Translations under genes and position numbers: made by a program | In this document: piece by piece, positions 5,552-55,233 of the stretch | Layout of the letters: every line of letters begins with the position of its first letter | Position numbering within the stretch: the stretch's first letter is position 1 | The notes under the pieces: generated by a model | Seen by the model: the letters and a program-made list of their open reading frames with translations, nothing else | The model's database searches: none | Told to the model about the DNA's origin: nothing | From: Escherichia phage vB_Eco_F31 | Sequence record: OP870147.1 | Length of the DNA: 64,000 nt | Direction: 5' to 3' (one strand)

Positions 5552-5976
5552 TATTTAAATTTAATTTTCTGAAGTGTATCAATTGCAGCCAAACGCCCTT
5601 GTTCACTTTTAACTGTAATGACCACATCGCCTGATACGATCACCGAACCATCAACAAATTCTATAGAGCCTTTTTTGAAATCGACAGCTGTATCTGGTTC
5701 CTGAACTTCTTCAAAGAATTTAAATTCTGCACCATAAAGCAGAATATCACCTTGCATACTATGAATAGTTCGGCCATAATCGCCTACGGCTTCTACAGCA
5801 ATAACCGAAACACCGTAACCAATCATCTCTTCCACAATAAAATCTTTGGACAATAAAGTAGTATGCAGATTAGTATTAAGACGTTTACCAGTCGTATTAA
5901 GAATTCTCAAGAAATTATCTTCCTGTCCTTTGATAATACGATATTTCTTACCAACTTCAAAACCTTTAAAAGCCAT
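5551..5976 (-). CDS. hypothetical protein (goF position by synteny)
   Basis: 141-aa ORF downstream of gene 39; same size as T4 goF, not otherwise verified. Confidence 0.45.
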   Translation of the reverse strand: MAFKGFEVGKKYRIIKGQEDNFLRILNTTGKRLNTNLHTTLLSKDFIVEEMIGYGVSVIAVEAVGDYGRTIHSMQGDILLYGAEFKFFEEVQEPDTAVDFKKGSIEFVDGSVIVSGDVVITVKSEQGRLAAIDTLQKIKFK

Positions 5977-7868: not shown

Positions 7869-8354
7869 TTAAGCTTTACGAGGAGACACATAACGAGTGA
7901 TTTCAGATTCTTTAACAACTCGGAAGTCACCTAAGAATACGATATTGTATAACTTTTCACCATCTTCTACCCATTGGTCACTAATGAAGCCACACATGGT
8001 ATCAGTTGTGCTTGGATAACCATATTCATCGATGAAGTCAAATTCTTTATCAGTCTGGAATTCAACACCTTTACACAAGGCCCATTTGAACTGTACATTA
8101 GGCTCTGTGGATTCAACTTTTTCTCTTGAAGCAAAAGCACTACTCGCAGGAGTTTCCAAGAACTTTGCACGAACATAAGCGAACTGAGTTTCCCTCGACC
8201 CAAGACTAGGAATAATACGAACTTTTACCTCAGAATCTTCATCTTTAACGCCTTCTTTAAGTTGAATACTTACAACTTCGACCAATTTTCCTGCTGCTTT
8301 AGAACGAGATTTTTTAGATACGCGAACGATTTCACCAATAATACCAAGATTCAT
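7869..8354 (-). CDS. hypothetical protein, member 2 of a tandem paralogue trio
   Basis: 161 aa; C-terminal GFISDQWVEDGEKLYNIVFLGDF; own early promoter. Confidence 0.55.
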   Translation of the reverse strand: MNLGIIGEIVRVSKKSRSKAAGKLVEVVSIQLKEGVKDEDSEVKVRIIPSLGSRETQFAYVRAKFLETPASSAFASREKVESTEPNVQFKWALCKGVEFQTDKEFDFIDEYGYPSTTDTMCGFISDQWVEDGEKLYNIVFLGDFRVVKESEITRYVSPRKA

Positions 8355-8383
8355 AATTTTCTCTCTTTGTTTAAGTTGAATTC

Positions 8384-8413
8384 ATTATACTCCATCCGTC
8401 CTTGGATGTACAA
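8384..8413 (-). promoter_or_regulatory. early promoter cassette (variant of the repeated cassette)
   Basis: Minus strand TGTACA-N17-GTATAAT with CCAAGGACGGATGG in the spacer. Confidence 0.45.
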
Positions 8414-8415
8414 CA

Positions 8416-8910
8416 TTAATTAAGGATATTAACCACAGCACTACGTGGAACTACACTAAAATCACCTGCATGAACAACGTTCAGAAGTTCAACACCGTCT
8501 TCAATCCACTGATCAGTCACCCATCCATTTACTGGACCAGCGAATGGGCGTCGAATTGAAACATATTTACACAACAAATCAGTAGGCTCAATAGGCTTAA
8601 TCAGAGTACCGTACATACAAGCGATATCCATATCAATACAGATATCTTTAACGGGTTCTACTTCTTCAATCAACAGTTCAAAGTCGGTGCTTGGAAGGGC
8701 GGTGGTAGAAATTGTACCATATGAATTTTTAATTTCTAAGAATAACCAAGGGCCTTCAACTTGTTTGATGAAGTTAACAATAGTGAAACTATTACCTTGA
8801 GTGGCACCTAAAATTTCACAAAACTTTTCATAAGCTCGCACTGAAGCACCGTACCAGTTGATTTGTTTTTCGTCTTTCAGGATGTAAGTAGCCGTAGTAT
8901 TGATATTCAT
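8416..8910 (-). CDS. hypothetical protein, member 3 of a tandem paralogue trio
   Basis: 164 aa; C-terminal GWVTDQWIEDGVELLNVVHAGDF; own early promoter. Confidence 0.55.
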   Translation of the reverse strand: MNINTTATYILKDEKQINWYGASVRAYEKFCEILGATQGNSFTIVNFIKQVEGPWLFLEIKNSYGTISTTALPSTDFELLIEEVEPVKDICIDMDIACMYGTLIKPIEPTDLLCKYVSIRRPFAGPVNGWVTDQWIEDGVELLNVVHAGDFSVVPRSAVVNILN

Positions 8911-8942
8911 AATGTTTTTTCCTGTTTGGTTAAGATAGAAAG

Positions 8943-8973
8943 ATTATACTCCAACCATCCTTGGTTGTAAACT
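8943..8973 (-). repeat. repeated early promoter cassette (copy 1), PeSL-like
   Basis: attatactccaaccatccttggttgta identical to copies near 50750 and 51770; GTTTAC-N17-GTATAAT on the minus strand. Confidence 0.55.
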
Positions 8974-8977
8974 GATT

Positions 8978-9655
8978 TTATCGCTGTTTTACACTTAACG
9001 GGTCAGGATTCTCAGGGACATCTTCAAGGCCAAGCGCATAACGCTGAGCATATTTTAACATCAAAATATCTTTAGCACAATCATGAATACTATCATGGGC
9101 AACGAATCCTTTTAGCGTACCCATCGGTAATGGACACATACTTAATCCTCGTGTCAACGAGTAAGCTTCGATTGCCGTACGAATATCGCGTTGAGCCCAG
9201 AATTTAACCGGTTCTAATTTATCAGTATCAATATCTGGTTCAAGAACACCTTCATCACGATAGAGGTCACGAATCAAATCGACCAAGATCGGGAAGTCAA
9301 AACTCATACCACGGCACCACATCTGTGATTTCCATTGGTCAACTTTATTAGCTCGACAATAATCTAAAAAGATTTTAATGCCTTCAAGCGTAGTGACATC
9401 GTCTTCAGACGGAGCCAAGTTTTTACGCGCTTCAGCCGATTGTTCTTTCCACCATTTCATAGTGGATTTAGCGAAAACTCGCTTCCCTTTCTGAGAAGCT
9501 AAATTAAATTTAATTCGCTTACCTCGTTGAACAAGTTCTTCAAATGATTCAACAACTTCAGGGTCGGAATTATATGCAATAACCGCAAGGTCAATAACAG
9601 CCGCTTTTGATGTATTGCCGAATGTTTCAAAATCTATAATAACATCAGTGCTCAT
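8978..9655 (-). CDS. dexA: exonuclease A (DEDD-type 3'-5' exonuclease)
   Basis: 225 aa; N-terminal IIDFETFG exonuclease motif; syntenic with T4 dexA next to dda. Confidence 0.75.
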   Translation of the reverse strand: MSTDVIIDFETFGNTSKAAVIDLAVIAYNSDPEVVESFEELVQRGKRIKFNLASQKGKRVFAKSTMKWWKEQSAEARKNLAPSEDDVTTLEGIKIFLDYCRANKVDQWKSQMWCRGMSFDFPILVDLIRDLYRDEGVLEPDIDTDKLEPVKFWAQRDIRTAIEAYSLTRGLSMCPLPMGTLKGFVAHDSIHDCAKDILMLKYAQRYALGLEDVPENPDPLSVKQR

Positions 9656-48799: not shown

Positions 48800-49059
48800 T
48801 TAAAATATTCTCGTAGTTGGTCAAATCCACCAATGTGACTTCCGTCAGGAGCAAACACCTGAGGCATAGTCAATCCAACTTGTGATTCACGTCCAAGCTT
48901 AACCAGAAGCTCAGCAATTTTCTCATCATCAAAAACACCTTTTTCTGGCATAACGTTAATGAATTCGAATGGTTGTTTCTTAACAGTCAGCAATCGTTTC
49001 GCATTATCACAATAAATGCATTTATGAATAGTAGAGTCATACCCGTACACTTTAAACAT
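48796..49059 (-). CDS. nrdC: thioredoxin/glutaredoxin NrdC
   Basis: 87 aa from MFKVYGYDSTIHKCIYCDNAKRLL; CxYC redox motif; near-colinear with T4 NrdC. Confidence 0.85.
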   Translation of the reverse strand: MFKVYGYDSTIHKCIYCDNAKRLLTVKKQPFEFINVMPEKGVFDDEKIAELLVKLGRESQVGLTMPQVFAPDGSHIGGFDQLREYFK

Positions 49060-49465
49060 TATTTTTCCTTTCATCGATTAAATATGCAATGCCAAATACA
49101 ATACATGTAATAAAACCTGTGATACAGATAGAAACCAACAATACTGTACCAAAGAACCAAATCAAGTTATCTTTGGTAGTTTGTTTGATATCCATCTCAC
49201 GAATTTCTATAGCTATCGTATCACCTTTATTCAGAAGCGTATAAAACGATGGCGATACACGCCTGTCAAAAACTCGTCCTTGCTCATCTTTATAGACTGC
49301 AATAAATTCTAATTTAGAATATTTTCCTGTAGATTGGCCTGAGATTAATTCCACTACCTCCACAGGAATTACTTTAGTTTCCATGTAAGTATTCTGGCTG
49401 TTCCAAATGAATGGAATAATAGCAAAAACTAAAGCTGTGATAAAACAACGAAGGCTATATCTCAT
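49052..49465 (-). CDS. membrane protein
   Basis: 137 aa with N- and C-terminal hydrophobic helices. Confidence 0.45.
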   Translation of the reverse strand: MRYSLRCFITALVFAIIPFIWNSQNTYMETKVIPVEVVELISGQSTGKYSKLEFIAVYKDEQGRVFDRRVSPSFYTLLNKGDTIAIEIREMDIKQTTKDNLIWFFGTVLLVSICITGFITCIVFGIAYLIDERKNNV

Positions 49466-49770
49466 TATAATGTTCTCTCAAATTTGTGGAAGCATTTACG
49501 GCATTTCAATTTCAAGTTATCAGTTGTCCAGTTAACCAGTTGGACTTGGATAGTTCCACATTCCGGGCATGGATGTTTTGCTGCCGATTTGGCAGCATTT
49601 TCACGTCGTTCAACCATTTTCATTATTTCGTTCCATGCCGGAGGAACAAACTCTTCTTCACCGTGGATTTTATCTCGCTGAACAAATTCAATCTTTGAAC
49701 TATCGTCAATAAACTTAACCAAGCCATGATTAGTGCTCATATCAATATCCTCTAAAAGACGTAGTTTCAT
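49465..49770 (-). CDS. zinc-ribbon protein
   Basis: 101 aa; CPECG...CRKC. Confidence 0.45.
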   Translation of the reverse strand: MKLRLLEDIDMSTNHGLVKFIDDSSKIEFVQRDKIHGEEEFVPPAWNEIMKMVERRENAAKSAAKHPCPECGTIQVQLVNWTTDNLKLKCRKCFHKFERTL

Positions 49771-50720
49771 TATAACACCTCAATGGCATTTCGTAAACCA
49801 TCCGCTTTCGCATTCAGAGCTTTTAACGATTTAGTTTGTTCTGCAATCTGGGCTTCGACTTCTTTCAGACGAGATTTGAGATATTCGCGTTCTTCTCTTA
49901 AGTTATCAACCTTTTCTGCTTTAGGCTCTTTAATAGGCTTAGGCTTATACTCGTTAGGGTTCTTCAACTTAATTTGAATGCGAGAACTGTATAACATTGA
50001 ACCATTATCTTCGGTTTCATCATACATTTCTACCACGTCCATGATTCTTAACATCATGCGAAGTTTATAAGACAGCGAACGAATGGTTTTATTGTGCTTC
50101 TTAATTTCTTCAGCTTTCATGGTGCCGAGATTACGTGAGTAATAATAAGGAACCTGAATATCAATTGATAATGATGCGGTACCATTACCGGTTGGTTTGA
50201 ACACTGCAGTAACCCAATCTTTAGCATGAACTGTATTTGTACGATCATCGCCGCCTGTGAATAATTTACGAGAATGTTTAAAAAGCATATTCACTTGGTT
50301 ATTGAATTCACAAGCAAATTTATCAGCAAATTTAGTTTCAGGAATGGTAGTTAACCAATCAGCCAAATGAGTCTTTTTAACATCATTAACAATAGTGAAT
50401 TCAACCAAATCGGTTTTAGATGTCACAGTTTTAATAAAGCTCGGCTTCATAAAGTTTTTAATGTTATCGCGAGCTACAGTAGAAGATAATAAACGAGAAC
50501 GTTTGAACCATTGAAGCAGTGTCCCTAATGAATGAGAATATGCATTTTGAGTATCTTTACAGATATGATTTTCTTGGCCTATGTATGTACCAAAATCTCG
50601 AAGAATACCACTTACTACATCTCGGTGTGGAACATCAAATCCTAGTGCACCAGAAGCACGTTGGGCATGAACGTTAGCGATAAGACCTGCAAAGTATTCA
50701 ATGTAATGTGAACGTGTCAT
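49770..50720 (-). CDS. hypothetical protein with C-terminal coiled coil
   Basis: 316 aa; preceded by a repeated promoter cassette. Confidence 0.5.
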   Translation of the reverse strand: MTRSHYIEYFAGLIANVHAQRASGALGFDVPHRDVVSGILRDFGTYIGQENHICKDTQNAYSHSLGTLLQWFKRSRLLSSTVARDNIKNFMKPSFIKTVTSKTDLVEFTIVNDVKKTHLADWLTTIPETKFADKFACEFNNQVNMLFKHSRKLFTGGDDRTNTVHAKDWVTAVFKPTGNGTASLSIDIQVPYYYSRNLGTMKAEEIKKHNKTIRSLSYKLRMMLRIMDVVEMYDETEDNGSMLYSSRIQIKLKNPNEYKPKPIKEPKAEKVDNLREEREYLKSRLKEVEAQIAEQTKSLKALNAKADGLRNAIEVL

Positions 50721-50749
50721 AATATTTTCCTCTCGTTAAGATAAATTCA

Positions 50750-50778
50750 TTATACTCCAACCATCCTTGGTTGTAAAC
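50750..50778 (-). repeat. repeated early promoter cassette (copy 2), PeSL-like
   Basis: attatactccaaccatccttggttgtaaac; GTTTAC-N17-GTATAAT on the minus strand upstream of ORF 49770-50720. Confidence 0.55.
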
Positions 50779-50782
50779 TATT

Positions 50783-51742
50783 TTATGATTTTAATGCATT
50801 CATTGCGTTAAAAAGTTTAGAATACTGCAACTGGAGATTCGTTACAACACTTTGAGCATCACGAAGCTTAGCTTGTGCTTTGTCAAGTTCAACAGACAGT
50901 TGGTCCATAGTGGCCTTGATTTGATTGTAATGGTAATCTTCGGCCGGAAGAAGGTCATTAGAAACATTTAGTTTTACTGCAGACAGTTTGCACACATTTG
51001 GCAAACCTTTAAACATTGATTTAGCCGAAGTAGAATAAGCACTTAGGACTTCGGCTTGTTCAATTGGGGTCCCAGTAAGCGATGCTTCAAACAATGCATT
51101 TTCCTTTTTAAGATTTTGATAGTATTCAGAGTCTTTGTGCCACCATGGCGCAGGAACCTTTTTACCAATAGATACACGAGCCTGGATAGCGATATTGCCC
51201 TTATTCTTGATAGGGTCGATAATATTAAGCTCACGAGAATAAATTGCTTTAATCTGGTGAATATTATCACCTAACACTTCCAACGCTTGGTGGAATACAC
51301 GAGCAACGTTATCATTCTTAGGTTTATACGTGAGAGTGAACTCGTTCTCACTGATAACCATGATTTCCAACTTATCGTAAGTATATTTCAAATGTTTCAT
51401 GTTAATTGCTTGAGGACGAATACGAGAAGCAATGGCCATCAGATTGTTAAGGTTATTCCGGAACTGCTTAGCGAAATATTGTCCTTCACCGCCAATACAA
51501 AAATTACGAAGTTTCTGTTTGGCCAATAAACGGCTGAACTCACCATTTTTAATGAACTCTTTAACGGGTGTGTTAGTAACGCATTCAAATTTAGTAAACT
51601 TACGAGAATTAATCCCATAATACGAACAGATTTCCTCAATCTCTTCAGGAGTCTTTACAGGCATACGGATAGGATTAGGTCCTGGAGTATATGCGTTCGA
51701 GGTAAATTCTTTGATAAGTTCTTTACGTGTAATAAAAGCCAT
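50783..51742 (-). CDS. hypothetical protein with C-terminal coiled coil
   Basis: 319 aa; preceded by an identical promoter cassette. Confidence 0.5.
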   Translation of the reverse strand: MAFITRKELIKEFTSNAYTPGPNPIRMPVKTPEEIEEICSYYGINSRKFTKFECVTNTPVKEFIKNGEFSRLLAKQKLRNFCIGGEGQYFAKQFRNNLNNLMAIASRIRPQAINMKHLKYTYDKLEIMVISENEFTLTYKPKNDNVARVFHQALEVLGDNIHQIKAIYSRELNIIDPIKNKGNIAIQARVSIGKKVPAPWWHKDSEYYQNLKKENALFEASLTGTPIEQAEVLSAYSTSAKSMFKGLPNVCKLSAVKLNVSNDLLPAEDYHYNQIKATMDQLSVELDKAQAKLRDAQSVVTNLQLQYSKLFNAMNALKS

Positions 51743-51769
51743 TTTATATTCCTCATGTTGAAAAATTTA

Positions 51770-51797
51770 TTATACTCCAACCATCCTTGGTTGTACA
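51770..51797 (-). repeat. repeated early promoter cassette (copy 3), PeSL-like
   Basis: attatactccaaccatccttggttgtaca upstream of ORF 50783-51742. Confidence 0.55.
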
Positions 51798-52793
51798 TCA
51801 TTCCTTAAGAAGTTTTACTACCTGAATAAGATTAGCTCGTTCTGTTTTATTTTTACCGTTTAAGCCTGCTAATCGTGAGATTTCATCGTCAGTCTGTTGA
51901 ATAGTTACATTAAGTTCGTTAATCAAAGCTTCAAAGTATTTGATTTGCTCAGCATGTTTTGATTCAAATTTCTGAACCGGAATAACGTCTTGGTTTAGTT
52001 CATCAATAAGGTCTTTAAGAGCATCTTCTTGGTTGATATCATATTCAACTTCTTTTATTTCTTCAATGAGCTCGTCTTTATATCTAACGTCTTTTAGTCC
52101 TGGTGCTGGTCCTGAAATCTCTTCTTTAAGAGTACAAACATATCCAATACGGTATCCAATGCCGTCTCGCTTGATATCAACTTCGTCGATAAATCCACAA
52201 TGTTTAAGCCCGGAGCCGATTATGTCAAAATATCCTTGACGTCGTCCTTCAAACGTTACACGAACTACTAAGACAGTTTTACCTGCAACCTTTTGAAGCT
52301 CACATTTATAAAAGTCAGTTGAACCTGAATAACGTGGATGAGTTTTAAAGTTCATCTGACGATCTAGGCCCATTTGTAAGCGTGCTGTTACGGCCATAAA
52401 ACGTGTTTGGTTCTCGTTAAGATGAGCAACAATCCATTTCAAAGGCATTTTACACTGTTCACGACCGAACAAATCAGTACGTCCTAGATTACGCAGGATG
52501 TTGTTAGAGTTAATCATCGACAGAACGTTAAGTTTATTCAGCGCGCTGAAGATTCCATCAGCCATTGATTTTCCATAACCTTTACACGCTTTAATAAGTG
52601 CTCGCGGCAGATTAGTATAGATTTCAGACGGCATATGAAAATCAAATTTACTAGTCAGTAATTGATGAACTTGGATAGCAATTTGCTCATAATTAAGTGC
52701 TCTGCGATCGTTATGGTCTTTAAACCACACTTTAATCTGTGAAGCACATAAACCGTTAATTTCATGTTTTACCGCATCAGATGTAATGCTCAT
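51798..52793 (-). CDS. hypothetical protein with C-terminal coiled coil
   Basis: 331-aa ORF. Confidence 0.5.
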   Translation of the reverse strand: MSITSDAVKHEINGLCASQIKVWFKDHNDRRALNYEQIAIQVHQLLTSKFDFHMPSEIYTNLPRALIKACKGYGKSMADGIFSALNKLNVLSMINSNNILRNLGRTDLFGREQCKMPLKWIVAHLNENQTRFMAVTARLQMGLDRQMNFKTHPRYSGSTDFYKCELQKVAGKTVLVVRVTFEGRRQGYFDIIGSGLKHCGFIDEVDIKRDGIGYRIGYVCTLKEEISGPAPGLKDVRYKDELIEEIKEVEYDINQEDALKDLIDELNQDVIPVQKFESKHAEQIKYFEALINELNVTIQQTDDEISRLAGLNGKNKTERANLIQVVKLLKE

Positions 52794-52855
52794 AACTATT
52801 TCCTCAGATTGAATTGGAACTCAAAACCATTATAACCCGTCCTTGGGTAAAGCGT

Positions 52856-54966: not shown

Positions 54967-55233
54967 TTACTTATCGCACTTAGCAACATAATTAGGCATA
55001 TCACAGAATACAGAGCGAGTAACTACTCGTCCCTTTGACCATGCTTCAGTTGCTTGTCCGGCCGTGCTATTAATATAGCTTGATTTGATATTCTCAATAC
55101 CCTGAGAATGCGATGCATTTACCGAACCGTTGGAAGGTGCAGAAGACTGGTTACCACCAGCTCCTGCACCTGTGGTAGCACCAACAGAGAATGCCATCAT
55201 TACTGCGAATAAACCAATTACTAATTTTTTCAT
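54967..55233 (-). CDS. small secreted protein
   Basis: 88 aa; signal peptide; Gly/Ser/Asn-rich. Confidence 0.45.
   Translation of the reverse strand: MKKLVIGLFAVMMAFSVGATTGAGAGGNQSSAPSNGSVNASHSQGIENIKSSYINSTAGQATEAWSKGRVVTRSVFCDMPNYVAKCDK

What the first reader, a model, noticed from the sequence alone, without database searches (positions are those of the whole stretch)
49770..52793. Three consecutive divergent ~320-aa genes with coiled-coil C-termini, each behind a promoter cassette
ORFs of 316, 319 and 331 aa follow one another, separated by the identical promoter cassettes. Sequence similarity between them is faint at best, but all end in an amphipathic coiled-coil-like segment. The arrangement suggests a modular array of swappable early genes in a hyperplastic region.
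Basis: inference. Interest (0 to 1): 0.5.

Follow-up and report, generated by a model that had tools for sequence, protein, structure and literature searches.

The report
T4 nrdC.3/.5/.6-type early gene array
These three genes are an RB69-like phage's versions of the T4 accessory early genes nrdC.3, nrdC.5 and nrdC.6: distant copies of one another that are gained and lost between known promoter/stem-loop cassettes, and one belongs to a family whose T4 member is published as overcoming the bacterial Dsr1 defence.

Summary
Three minus-strand ORFs of 316, 319 and 331 aa sit head to tail. The two spacers between them carry an identical 27-nt promoter/hairpin core. The cassette upstream of the 331-aa gene is a 6-nt-shorter variant without a properly spaced -35.

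The window is a Mosigvirus (RB69-like T4-type phage). The genes correspond to T4 nrdC.3 (56% identity), nrdC.5 (Pfam DUF7235, 25%) and nrdC.6 (29%). Pairwise similarity between the three is nil. Profile-profile comparison with permutation controls links nrdC.3/.4 to nrdC.5, and that merged profile to nrdC.6 (E about 1e-5, collinear over about 200 columns). So they are probably ancient tandem paralogs sharing a helical N-domain, a small alpha/beta unit, a linker and a C-terminal helix.

Array content varies between T-even phages. One Mosigvirus lacks the 319-aa gene and carries a chimeric cassette at the junction, as the published PeSL recombination model predicts.

T4 nrdC.5 is published as counteracting the Dsr1 sirtuin defence. 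The best reading is therefore an early-expressed, swappable set of host-defence antagonists. That function is inferred for all three genes here. No known fold or domain was found. This is a new member of a known kind, of moderate interest.

The parts
49770..50720 (-). 316-aa gene, ortholog of T4 nrdC.3 (phrog_1435; precomputed Pfam PF26897)
   Evidence: ORF. 56% identity over the full length to T4 nrdC.3, with a weak hit to T4 nrdC.4 (E 1e-4). phrog_1435 E 1e-105. T4 nrdC.3 and nrdC.4 both fall in phrog_1435.
49773..49910 (-). C-terminal helix / coiled-coil segment of the 316-aa protein (aa 271-316)
   Evidence: AF2 helix 275-315, pLDDT 73-84. Heptad scan. It is the best conserved segment versus T4 nrdC.3: 70% against 51-58% elsewhere.
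50749..50777 (-). PeSL-type cassette before the 316-aa gene: TTTACA-N17-TATAAT with hairpin CAACC-AAGGAT-GGTTG in the spacer, followed by a Shine-Dalgarno sequence and ATG
50783..51742 (-). 319-aa gene, divergent member of the T4 nrdC.5 family (Pfam DUF7235 / PF23882; phrog_2351)
   Evidence: ORF. DUF7235 E 2e-122, 408.8 bits against a cut-off of 30. 25% identity over 308 aa to T4 nrdC.5, E 7e-10. RB69 homolog named NrdC.5.
50786..50947 (-). C-terminal heptad-repeat segment of the 319-aa protein (aa 266-319)
   Evidence: Heptad scan, windows 267-319. 44% identity to T4 nrdC.5 here against 19-27% elsewhere. Not modelled structurally.
51769..51797 (-). PeSL-type cassette before the 319-aa gene: TGTACA-N17-TATAAT, same 27-nt core and hairpin. 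Its -35 abuts the stop codon of the 331-aa gene.
51798..52793 (-). 331-aa gene, homolog of T4 nrdC.6 (phrog_2257; precomputed Pfam PF26899)
   Evidence: ORF. 29% identity over 269 aa to T4 nrdC.6, E 6e-18. phrog_2257 E 2e-127. AF2 model with mean pLDDT 67.
51801..51962 (-). C-terminal helical segment of the 331-aa protein (aa 278-331)
   Evidence: AF2 helices 281-308 and 313-330. 48-59% identity to Dhakavirus and Tequatrovirus nrdC.6 here against 12-35% elsewhere.
52829..52851 (-). Shortened cassette variant before the 331-aa gene: TTTAC, hairpin ACCC-AAGGAC-GGGT, TATAAT. The -35 is not at a canonical distance.
   Evidence: Not called by the promoter scan. The same short type precedes nrdC.6 in T4, dhaeg, MN01 and ESCO47.

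Best explanation
The three ORFs are the Mosigvirus versions of T4 nrdC.3, nrdC.5 and nrdC.6. They are non-essential early genes in the hyperplastic nrdC-tk region.

They are probably ancient tandem paralogs with a shared build: a helical N-domain of about 150 residues, a small alpha/beta unit, a variable low-complexity linker, and a C-terminal amphipathic helix ending in L-x-x-[AV]-h-x-x-L-K.

The two downstream genes each have their own sigma-70-type early promoter inside a PeSL cassette (promoter, spacer hairpin, Shine-Dalgarno sequence). Homologous recombination between such cassettes adds or removes whole genes. This step rests on comparative evidence.

Inferred function: each protein is made in the first minutes of infection and binds and neutralises a host factor, most likely an anti-phage defence protein. 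The rapidly diverging N-terminal and central part would supply specificity. The conserved C-terminal helix would supply oligomerisation or a common partner.

For the 319-aa protein the most likely target is a Dsr1-type SIR2 NADase, blocked before the late major capsid protein that triggers Dsr1 accumulates. For the 316- and 331-aa proteins the targets are unknown.

How the confidence breaks down: identity and cassette-mediated modularity about 0.9; common ancestry of the three about 0.65; anti-defence function of the 319-aa protein about 0.5; anti-defence function of all three about 0.35.
For: Identity and synteny.

Paralogy:
- The nrdC.3 and nrdC.4 families give hhalign probability 97.5-98%.
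- The nrdC.3/.4 profile against the nrdC.5 profile scores 45.3, E 1.7e-5, over 219 collinear columns. Column-shuffled nulls give 13.8 +/- 1.8 and the reversed profile 15.5.
- The merged .3/.4/.5 profile against nrdC.6 scores 43.5, E 3e-5, over 204 columns. The null is 12.8 +/- 2.0 and the reversed profile 12.7.
- Neighbouring proteins used as controls score <= 19.

Shared element order in the two AF2 models. Shared C-terminal motif.

Early promoters and cassettes. Hairpin covariation, with five compensating stem variants.

Gene gain and loss. Chimeric cassette at the ESCO47 junction. This matches PeSL-mediated excision with crossover in the loop (PMC2839356).

Fast divergence: flanking nrdC.8.10 and .11 are 77-83% identical between T4 and the window, while the three genes are 56, 25 and 29%. 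The alignment of nrdC.3 alleles shows two N-terminal variants and two central-segment variants in all four combinations, which I read as mosaic recombination.

Function: T4 nrdC.5 expressed in trans restores plating of a T4 deletion clone on E. coli carrying dsr1 (PMC9391042). A 2026 preprint's section and figure headings state that the sensor domain shared by Avs7 and Dsr1 recognises phage major capsid proteins (PMC12803255).
Against: No function has been measured for any of the three proteins in this phage. The 319-aa protein is only 25% identical to T4 nrdC.5, so its target specificity may differ.

Nothing is published on nrdC.3, nrdC.4 or nrdC.6 function. Extending 'anti-defence' to them is guilt by association.

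The superfamily link rests on hhalign probabilities of 73-78%, not above 95%. The nrdC.6 family does not link to either other family on its own.

The AF2 model of the 316-aa protein is poor (pLDDT 52.8). The two models could not be superposed with the tools available.

The Foldseek search with the 331-aa model did not retrieve nrdC.3.4 or .5 entries among its 50 listed hits.

The C-terminal similarity could partly reflect generic coiled-coil composition.
Confidence: 0.55

Rival explanations
1. The proteins are host-takeover or regulatory factors unrelated to defence. As basic, soluble early proteins they might remodel the host nucleoid, transcription or metabolism. Their variability would then reflect host-strain adaptation in general.
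For: All three are soluble, and two are strongly basic (pI 9.3-9.4). They carry early promoters. No defence-related domain was detected. Function is unknown for nrdC.3.4 and .6.
Against: The only family member with experimental data (T4 nrdC.5) acts against a specific defence gene and is dispensable on laboratory hosts. Presence/absence polymorphism within one genus fits conditional, host-specific value better than a general takeover role.
Confidence: 0.22
2. The genes are near-neutral ORFan cargo that persists because PeSL cassettes duplicate and move it. The shared termini arise from recombination near the cassettes, not from a common function.
For: Gene loss is tolerated (ESCO47, Pinarejo, ACG-C40). 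T4's own nrdC.6 is frameshift-truncated at the C-terminus. The cassettes are recombination substrates.
Against: Full-length ORFs are kept intact in hundreds of genomes, at 25-56% identity between genera. The C-terminal helix is selectively conserved. The similarity between families is at protein level and not at DNA level. T4 nrdC.5 has a measured phenotype.
Confidence: 0.08
3. They are thioredoxin- or nucleotide-metabolism-related proteins, as many GenBank records label them.
For: Many records annotate these ORFs as 'thioredoxin'.
Against: There is no thioredoxin or any redox Pfam or NCBIfam hit. None of the three sequences contains a CxxC motif. The label is attached indiscriminately to nrdC.2 through nrdC.11 homologs, which have unrelated sequences. 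It is evidently propagated from the locus names 'nrdC.x'.
Confidence: 0.01

Closest known systems
T4 NrdC.5 (Pfam DUF7235, PF23882), reported anti-Dsr1 factor (Srikant et al. 2022, PMC9391042)
   Same: The 319-aa protein matches the family model end to end (E 2e-122). It occupies the same slot, downstream of the nrdC.6 homolog and upstream of nrdC.3/.4. It is of similar length and has the same C-terminal heptad helix ending in L-x-N-A-h-N-A-L.
   Different: It is only 25% identical to the T4 protein. tblastn finds the Mosigvirus type and the T4 type as two disjoint sets: 132 records for the former and 582 for the latter, and neither query retrieves the other type. It has its own PeSL promoter, whereas T4 nrdC.5 follows nrdC.6 with only a Shine-Dalgarno spacer. 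Activity against Dsr1 is untested.
T4 nrdC.3, nrdC.4 and nrdC.6 (uncharacterised early ORFs; phrog_1435 and phrog_2257)
   Same: The 316-aa protein is the nrdC.3 ortholog and the 331-aa protein the nrdC.6 homolog. Order and orientation match T4.
   Different: This phage lacks nrdC.4. Its nrdC.6 homolog carries the full C-terminal helix plus a longer acidic linker. The T4 reference copy of nrdC.6 has lost the helix through a frameshift.
PeSL cassettes (promoter-early stem-loops) of T4-type phages (Arbiol et al. 2010, PMC2839356; Comeau et al. 2014, PMC4122927)
   Same: Each has a sigma-70-like early promoter, a stem-loop between the -35 and -10 boxes or overlapping the -10, and a Shine-Dalgarno sequence plus start codon at the 3' end. 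They lie in a hyperplastic region and flank variable ORFs. A chimeric cassette sits at an indel junction, with the crossover in the loop.
   Different: The stem is short (4-6 bp, NNCC-AAGGAY-GGNN) with no U-tract, so terminator activity is doubtful. The flanked genes are about 1 kb members of a paralog family, not small ORFans.
DSAD1, the phage inhibitor of DSR2
   Same: Conceptual analogy only: a phage protein that counteracts a defence-associated sirtuin (abstracts listed).
   Different: No sequence or structure comparison could be made here, because I had no DSAD1 sequence. DSAD1 comes from Bacillus SPbeta-type phage and targets DSR2, not DSR1.

Membership tests
DUF7235 / T4 NrdC.5 family (319-aa ORF) | Pfam PF23882 model matched above the gathering score over the full length | tested here: met
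   408.8 bits against a cut-off of 30; residues 15-318 match profile positions 1-307 of 307. T4 nrdC.5 itself scores 420.6 bits.
DUF7235 / T4 NrdC.5 family (319-aa ORF) | Syntenic position within the nrdC.6-.5-.4-.3 array | tested here: met
DUF7235 / T4 NrdC.5 family (319-aa ORF) | Counteracts Dsr1-mediated defence | not testable with these tools
   Shown only for T4 nrdC.5 (PMC9391042). It needs plaque assays.
nrdC.3/nrdC.4 family (phrog_1435, PF26897) (316-aa ORF) | Full-length profile match and orthology to T4 nrdC.3 | tested here: met
   phrog_1435 E 1.2e-105, residues 1-316. 56% identity to T4 nrdC.3. PF26897 is listed for all homologs, but that model is absent from the local Pfam copy.
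nrdC.6 family (phrog_2257, PF26899) (331-aa ORF) | Full-length profile match and homology to T4 nrdC.6 | tested here: met
   phrog_2257 E 1.7e-127. E 6e-18 to T4 nrdC.6. Foldseek hit to JS10 nrdC.6, E 4e-14.
Single nrdC.3-.6 superfamily (proposed here) | Significant collinear profile-profile similarity between all member families | tested here: inconclusive
   The .3/.4 to .5 link gives E 1.7e-5 at 78% probability. The merged profile to .6 gives E 3e-5 at 73% probability. Both lie far above permutation nulls. But .6 does not link to .3/.4 or to .5 alone.
Single nrdC.3-.6 superfamily (proposed here) | Common three-dimensional fold | tested here: inconclusive
   The two AF2 models show the same order of secondary-structure elements. 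One model is poor (pLDDT 52.8) and no direct superposition was possible. The BFVD search with the 331-aa model did not list nrdC.3.4 or .5.
PeSL cassette | Sigma-70-like early promoter with canonical spacing | tested here: met
   Met for the two spacers between the genes, at 11/12 and 10/12 matches with N17. Not met for the variant before the 331-aa gene.
PeSL cassette | Stem-loop between -35 and -10, or overlapping the -10 | tested here: met
   Hairpin NNCC-AAGGAY-GGNN. Five stem variants with compensating changes were seen across the window and related loci.
PeSL cassette | Recombination between cassettes creates gene indels with a chimeric cassette at the junction | tested here: met
   The ESCO47 junction has an AACC...GGAT hybrid stem, its left flank matches the cassette before the 319-aa gene, and the 319-aa gene is absent.
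PeSL cassette | The stem-loop acts as a transcription terminator or attenuator | tested here: inconclusive
   The terminator scan called none at these positions. The stems are short and lack a T-run. Function needs a reporter assay.
Thioredoxin (GenBank label) | Thioredoxin fold signature or CxxC active site | tested here: not met
   No thioredoxin Pfam or NCBIfam hit. No CxxC in any of the three sequences.

The most novel reading that the evidence does not exclude
nrdC.3, .4, .5 and .6, together with the syntenic uncharacterised proteins of about 300-335 aa in Acinetobacter, Klebsiella, Enterobacter and Aeromonas T4-like phages, would form one Straboviridae-wide, fast-evolving superfamily of immune antagonists with a previously undescribed fold. 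It would have a common C-terminal oligomerisation helix and a diversifying recognition domain. Each paralog would be tuned to a different host sensor, and the family would be expanded and pruned by PeSL-mediated cassette exchange. That would make it a phage counterpart of a multigene immune-evasion family.
Probability: 0.2. Interest if true: 0.65.

Novelty: new member of a known kind. Interest (0 to 1): 0.35.

Why it matters
The genes themselves are catalogued T4-type ORFs and the cassette mechanism is published, so the locus is not a discovery in kind. Three things are useful.

- The 319-aa gene is a highly divergent member of the nrdC.5 family, whose T4 member counteracts Dsr1. It offers a natural specificity variant for working out how Dsr1 is inhibited; a 2026 paper still calls DSR1 poorly characterised.
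- If nrdC.3, .4, .5 and .6 are one paralog family, the known nrdC.5 phenotype becomes a direct hypothesis for three or more orphan T4 genes, testable against defence libraries.
- The ESCO47 junction is a clean natural example of PeSL-mediated gene loss in the RB69 group.

Tried and rejected
Searches that found no assignment:
- Pfam, NCBIfam and PADLOC gave only sub-threshold coiled-coil noise, apart from DUF7235 for the 319-aa protein.
- Profile searches against PDB sequences found nothing below E 0.2.

Searches that showed how narrow the families are:
- The three word-indexed homolog searches returned only close relatives.
- I used the single exhaustive representative search with a merged three-family profile, hoping to fetch all families at once. 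It returned 8 proteins. The families are narrow, and the merged profile lost sensitivity for the T4-type members.
- The viral-contig scan with the nrdC.5 alignment found 4 loci.

Structure prediction:
- AF2 of the 316-aa protein with 29 close homologs gave pLDDT 52.8. Its Foldseek search was uninformative beyond the nrdC.3 homolog.

Homology tests:
- The first shallow hhalign runs were inconclusive. The link appeared only after adding Tequatrovirus, Dhakavirus and Gaprivervirus sequences and merging families.
- Acj9p122, a Foldseek neighbour of the 331-aa model, shows no sequence-level link.

Rejected: the 'thioredoxin' annotation was considered and rejected.
Full report
**What is there.** The region holds three consecutive minus-strand ORFs: 49770-50720 (316 aa), 50783-51742 (319 aa) and 51798-52793 (331 aa). 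The window is 99% identical over this stretch to Shigella phage JK45 and to other members of the genus Mosigvirus (RB69-like T4-type phages). 131 records cover at least 80% of the 4-kb query.

**The cassettes.**
- The two spacers between the ORFs contain the exact 26-mer ACAACCAAGGATGGTTGGAGTATAAT; the identical run is 27 nt. It occurs at only two other places in the 64 kb, against zero expected by chance.
- Both spacer copies score as sigma-70-type promoters: TTTACA-N17-TATAAT and TGTACA-N17-TATAAT. This fits the TTTACW...N17...TAYWAT consensus reported for T4-group PeSLs (PMC4122927).
- The sequence before the 331-aa gene is related but 6 nt shorter. Its TTTAC therefore lies only about 11 nt from the -10, and the scan did not call it.
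- The same short type precedes nrdC.6 in T4, dhaeg, MN01 and ESCO47. It is therefore a conserved variant. Whether it is an active promoter is open.

**Identity of the genes.** I compared them with the annotated T4 genome.

| Window ORF | T4 counterpart | Evidence |
|---|---|---|
| 316 aa | nrdC.3 | 56% identical; phrog_1435 |
| 319 aa | nrdC.5 | 25% over 308 aa, E 7e-10; Pfam DUF7235 end to end, E 2e-122; phrog_2351 |
| 331 aa | nrdC.6 | 29% over 269 aa, E 6e-18; phrog_2257 |

All three PHROG families are of unknown function. Neighbours confirm synteny: nrdC, nrdC.2, nrdC.8, nrdC.9, nrdC.10 (AAA-type NTPase-like) and nrdC.11 (nucleotidyltransferase). The widespread GenBank label 'thioredoxin' is a propagation artefact. 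There is no thioredoxin signature and no CxxC motif.

**Are the three related?** Pairwise BLAST says no (E >= 3.9), and shallow profiles were inconclusive. I collected homologs from Tequatrovirus, Dhakavirus, Gaprivervirus and other Mosigvirus genomes, built family alignments and ran hhalign locally with permutation controls.
- nrdC.3 and nrdC.4 are clear paralogs (probability 97.5-98%). Both fall in phrog_1435.
- The combined nrdC.3/.4 profile aligns with the nrdC.5 profile over 219 collinear columns. The score is 45.3 and E is 1.7e-5. Column-shuffled nulls give 13.8 +/- 1.8 and the reversed profile 15.5.
- The nrdC.6 family does not link to either family alone.
- It does link to the merged .3/.4/.5 profile over 204 collinear columns. 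The score is 43.5 and E is 3e-5. The null is 12.8 +/- 2.0 and the reversed profile 12.7.
- Unrelated neighbours score <= 19.
- Shared landmarks are an N-terminal M(K)TR-x-x-[YL]-I-x-x-F in the nrdC.3, nrdC.4 and Mosigvirus nrdC.5 proteins (T4 nrdC.5 keeps only MKTR), an L-L-S...NF/NY helix, an F-x-x-F-[RN]-x-N helix followed by a beta-hairpin, and a terminal L-x-x-[AV]-h-x-x-L-K.

I conclude, with moderate confidence, that the array is one old, very divergent paralog family.

**Structure.**
- AF2 of the 316-aa protein was poor (mean pLDDT 52.8), but it gave a confident C-terminal helix at 275-315.
- AF2 of the 331-aa protein was better (mean 67.3; N-domain 75-89).
  - Seven helices span residues 3-141.
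  - A beta-hairpin at 162-179 and a helix at 185-198 follow.
  - The linker at 209-277 is disordered.
  - C-terminal helices lie at 281-308 and 313-330.
- The order of elements is the same in both models.
- Foldseek against BFVD with the 331-aa model found nrdC.6 homologs. It then found uncharacterised proteins of about 300-335 aa from T4-like phages of Enterobacter, Acinetobacter (Acj9, 133), Klebsiella (Mineola) and Aeromonas (probability 0.99-1.0 for ranks 4-8, dropping to 0.8-0.97 for the weaker hits of ranks 9-11, which include the Aeromonas phages; TM 0.22-0.46; 10-17% identity).
- The Acj9 hit corresponds in length to Acj9p122, a 325-aa ORF between gene 49 and nrdC.10. That is the same neighbourhood. 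It also ends in a heptad helix after a Ser-rich linker. It shows no sequence-level link.
- The fold is therefore unassigned. Model quality limits how far this conclusion can be taken.

**Plasticity and mechanism of exchange.** Array content varies as follows.
- T4: .6/.5/.4/.3
- This phage: .6/.5/.3
- ESCO47 (Mosigvirus): .6/.3
- Dhakavirus and Gaprivervirus: .6/.5/.4
- CJY920 (Tequatrovirus): .6/.5/.3
- Pinarejo and ACG-C40: only 45-46-aa C-terminal remnants of nrdC.6 and nrdC.3 respectively
.

Counts in the phage collection are below.

| Type | Records |
|---|---|
| Mosigvirus-type nrdC.5 | 132, all >= 80% identical |
| 316-aa type at >= 90% identity | about 149 |
| 331-aa type at >= 95% identity | about 151 |

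So roughly one in eight Mosigvirus records lacks the 319-aa gene. nrdC.3 alleles fall in three identity classes. The alignment shows two N-terminal variants and two central-segment variants in all four combinations, which I read as mosaic recombination.

The cassettes fit the published PeSL definition: an early promoter, a stem-loop between -35 and -10 or overlapping the -10, and a Shine-Dalgarno sequence plus ATG (PMC2839356). The hairpin NNCC-AAGGAY-GGNN shows compensatory variation: AACC/GGTT, ATCC/GGAT, AGCC/GGCT, ACCC/GGGT and TACC/GGTA.

At the ESCO47 junction between nrdC.6 and nrdC.3, the left flank matches the cassette before the 319-aa gene. The stem there is a mismatched hybrid, AACC...GGAT. 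This is what a crossover in the loop between two cassettes would leave. Arbiol et al. mapped exactly that crossover point in RB49.

**Function.**
- The only experimental datum in the family is that T4 nrdC.5, expressed in trans, restores plating of a T4 deletion clone on MG1655 carrying dsr1 from ECOR17 (PMC9391042).
- Dsr1 is a SIR2-domain defence protein. A 2026 preprint's section and figure headings state that the TPR-repeat sensor domain it shares with Avs7 recognises phage major capsid proteins (PMC12803255). Another 2026 paper still calls DSR1 poorly characterised.
- An inhibitor made from an early promoter would be in place before the late capsid protein appears.
- I therefore infer that the 319-aa protein is a Dsr1-type antagonist, possibly with shifted specificity given its 25% identity to T4 nrdC.5.
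- I also infer that its paralogs are antagonists of other host factors.
- Supporting context:
  - The three genes have diverged far more between T4 and this phage (56, 25 and 29% identity) than flanking nrdC.8.10 and .11 (77-83%).
  - Within each family the C-terminal helix is the best conserved part and the linker the worst. This fits a constant oligomerisation or partner module with a variable recognition module.
- None of this has been measured for these proteins. Nothing is published on nrdC.3.4 or .6.

**Verdict.** The locus consists of known T4-type accessory genes flanked by known PeSL-type cassettes. The new elements are modest:
- profile-level evidence that nrdC.3 to nrdC.6 form one paralog family;
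- structural neighbours of the nrdC.6 homolog in other Straboviridae;
- a natural chimeric-PeSL deletion of the nrdC.5 homolog.

Novelty: new member of a known kind. Interest about 0.35.

Noticed in passing
L001:7985-8090 (T4 NC_000866, between nrdC.6 and nrdC.5): The T4 reference nrdC.6 (275 aa) stops early. The conserved C-terminal helix SKAKSEREKLIKIVDLLKS is still encoded just downstream in another frame. Close relatives (L005, L006, L012) have an intact ORF of 295-296 aa. So the T4 copy appears frameshift-truncated.
   Followed up: partly
window 8344-8420 and 8903-8979 (minus strand): The same PeSL subtype (hairpin NNCC-AAGGAY-GGNN plus GGAGTATAAT) precedes two of three consecutive ORFs (139, 161 and 164 aa) downstream of a 225-aa ORF at 8978-9655. 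The three ORFs share a C-terminal W(V/I)EDG-x-L-x-N-(I/V)-V motif. This looks like a second small paralog array built on the same cassette.
   Followed up: no
window 50749-50774, 51769-51794, 8384-8409; T4 L001 about 5860-5915: In most full-length cassettes the hairpin is followed at once by GGAG (...GGTTGGAGTATAAT). From my own knowledge, GGAG is the motif cleaved by the T4 RegB endoribonuclease. In read-through transcripts the hairpin plus GGAG might be a processing site. Not tested.
   Followed up: no
L009:7001-7135 (phage Pinarejo); NC_019399 47515-47652 (ACG-C40): There are unannotated remnants of 45-46 codons of the C-terminal helix only: nrdC.6 in Pinarejo (60% identity to the window protein) and nrdC.3 in ACG-C40 (85%). 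Deletions seem to remove the body of a gene and leave its 3' end next to the following cassette.
   Followed up: partly
window 49052-49465 (minus strand): The 137-aa predicted membrane protein directly upstream of nrdC is the homolog of T4 nrdC.7 (41% identity). In T4, nrdC.7 lies between nrdC.6 and nrdC.8. This is a gene-order change within the region, and the T4 nrdC.1 slot is occupied by it here.
   Followed up: no
window 54967-55233 (minus strand): An 88-aa ORF with a signal-peptide-like N-terminus (MKKLVIGLFAVMMAFSVGA...) lies between the nrdC.10 and nrdC.11 homologs. T4 has no annotated gene in that interval.
   Followed up: no
L013:36836-37813 (Acinetobacter phage Acj9, Acj9p122): A 325-aa ORF lies between gene 49 and nrdC.10. 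It matches in length the Acj9 protein that Foldseek pairs with the 331-aa model (probability 1.0, TM 0.40). It has a Ser-rich linker and a C-terminal heptad helix, but no PHROG hit and no detectable sequence similarity to the nrdC.3-.6 families.
   Followed up: partly
GenBank records listed: Many phage records label nrdC.2 through nrdC.11 homologs as 'thioredoxin', although their sequences are unrelated to it. This looks like systematic annotation propagation from the locus names.
   Followed up: partly
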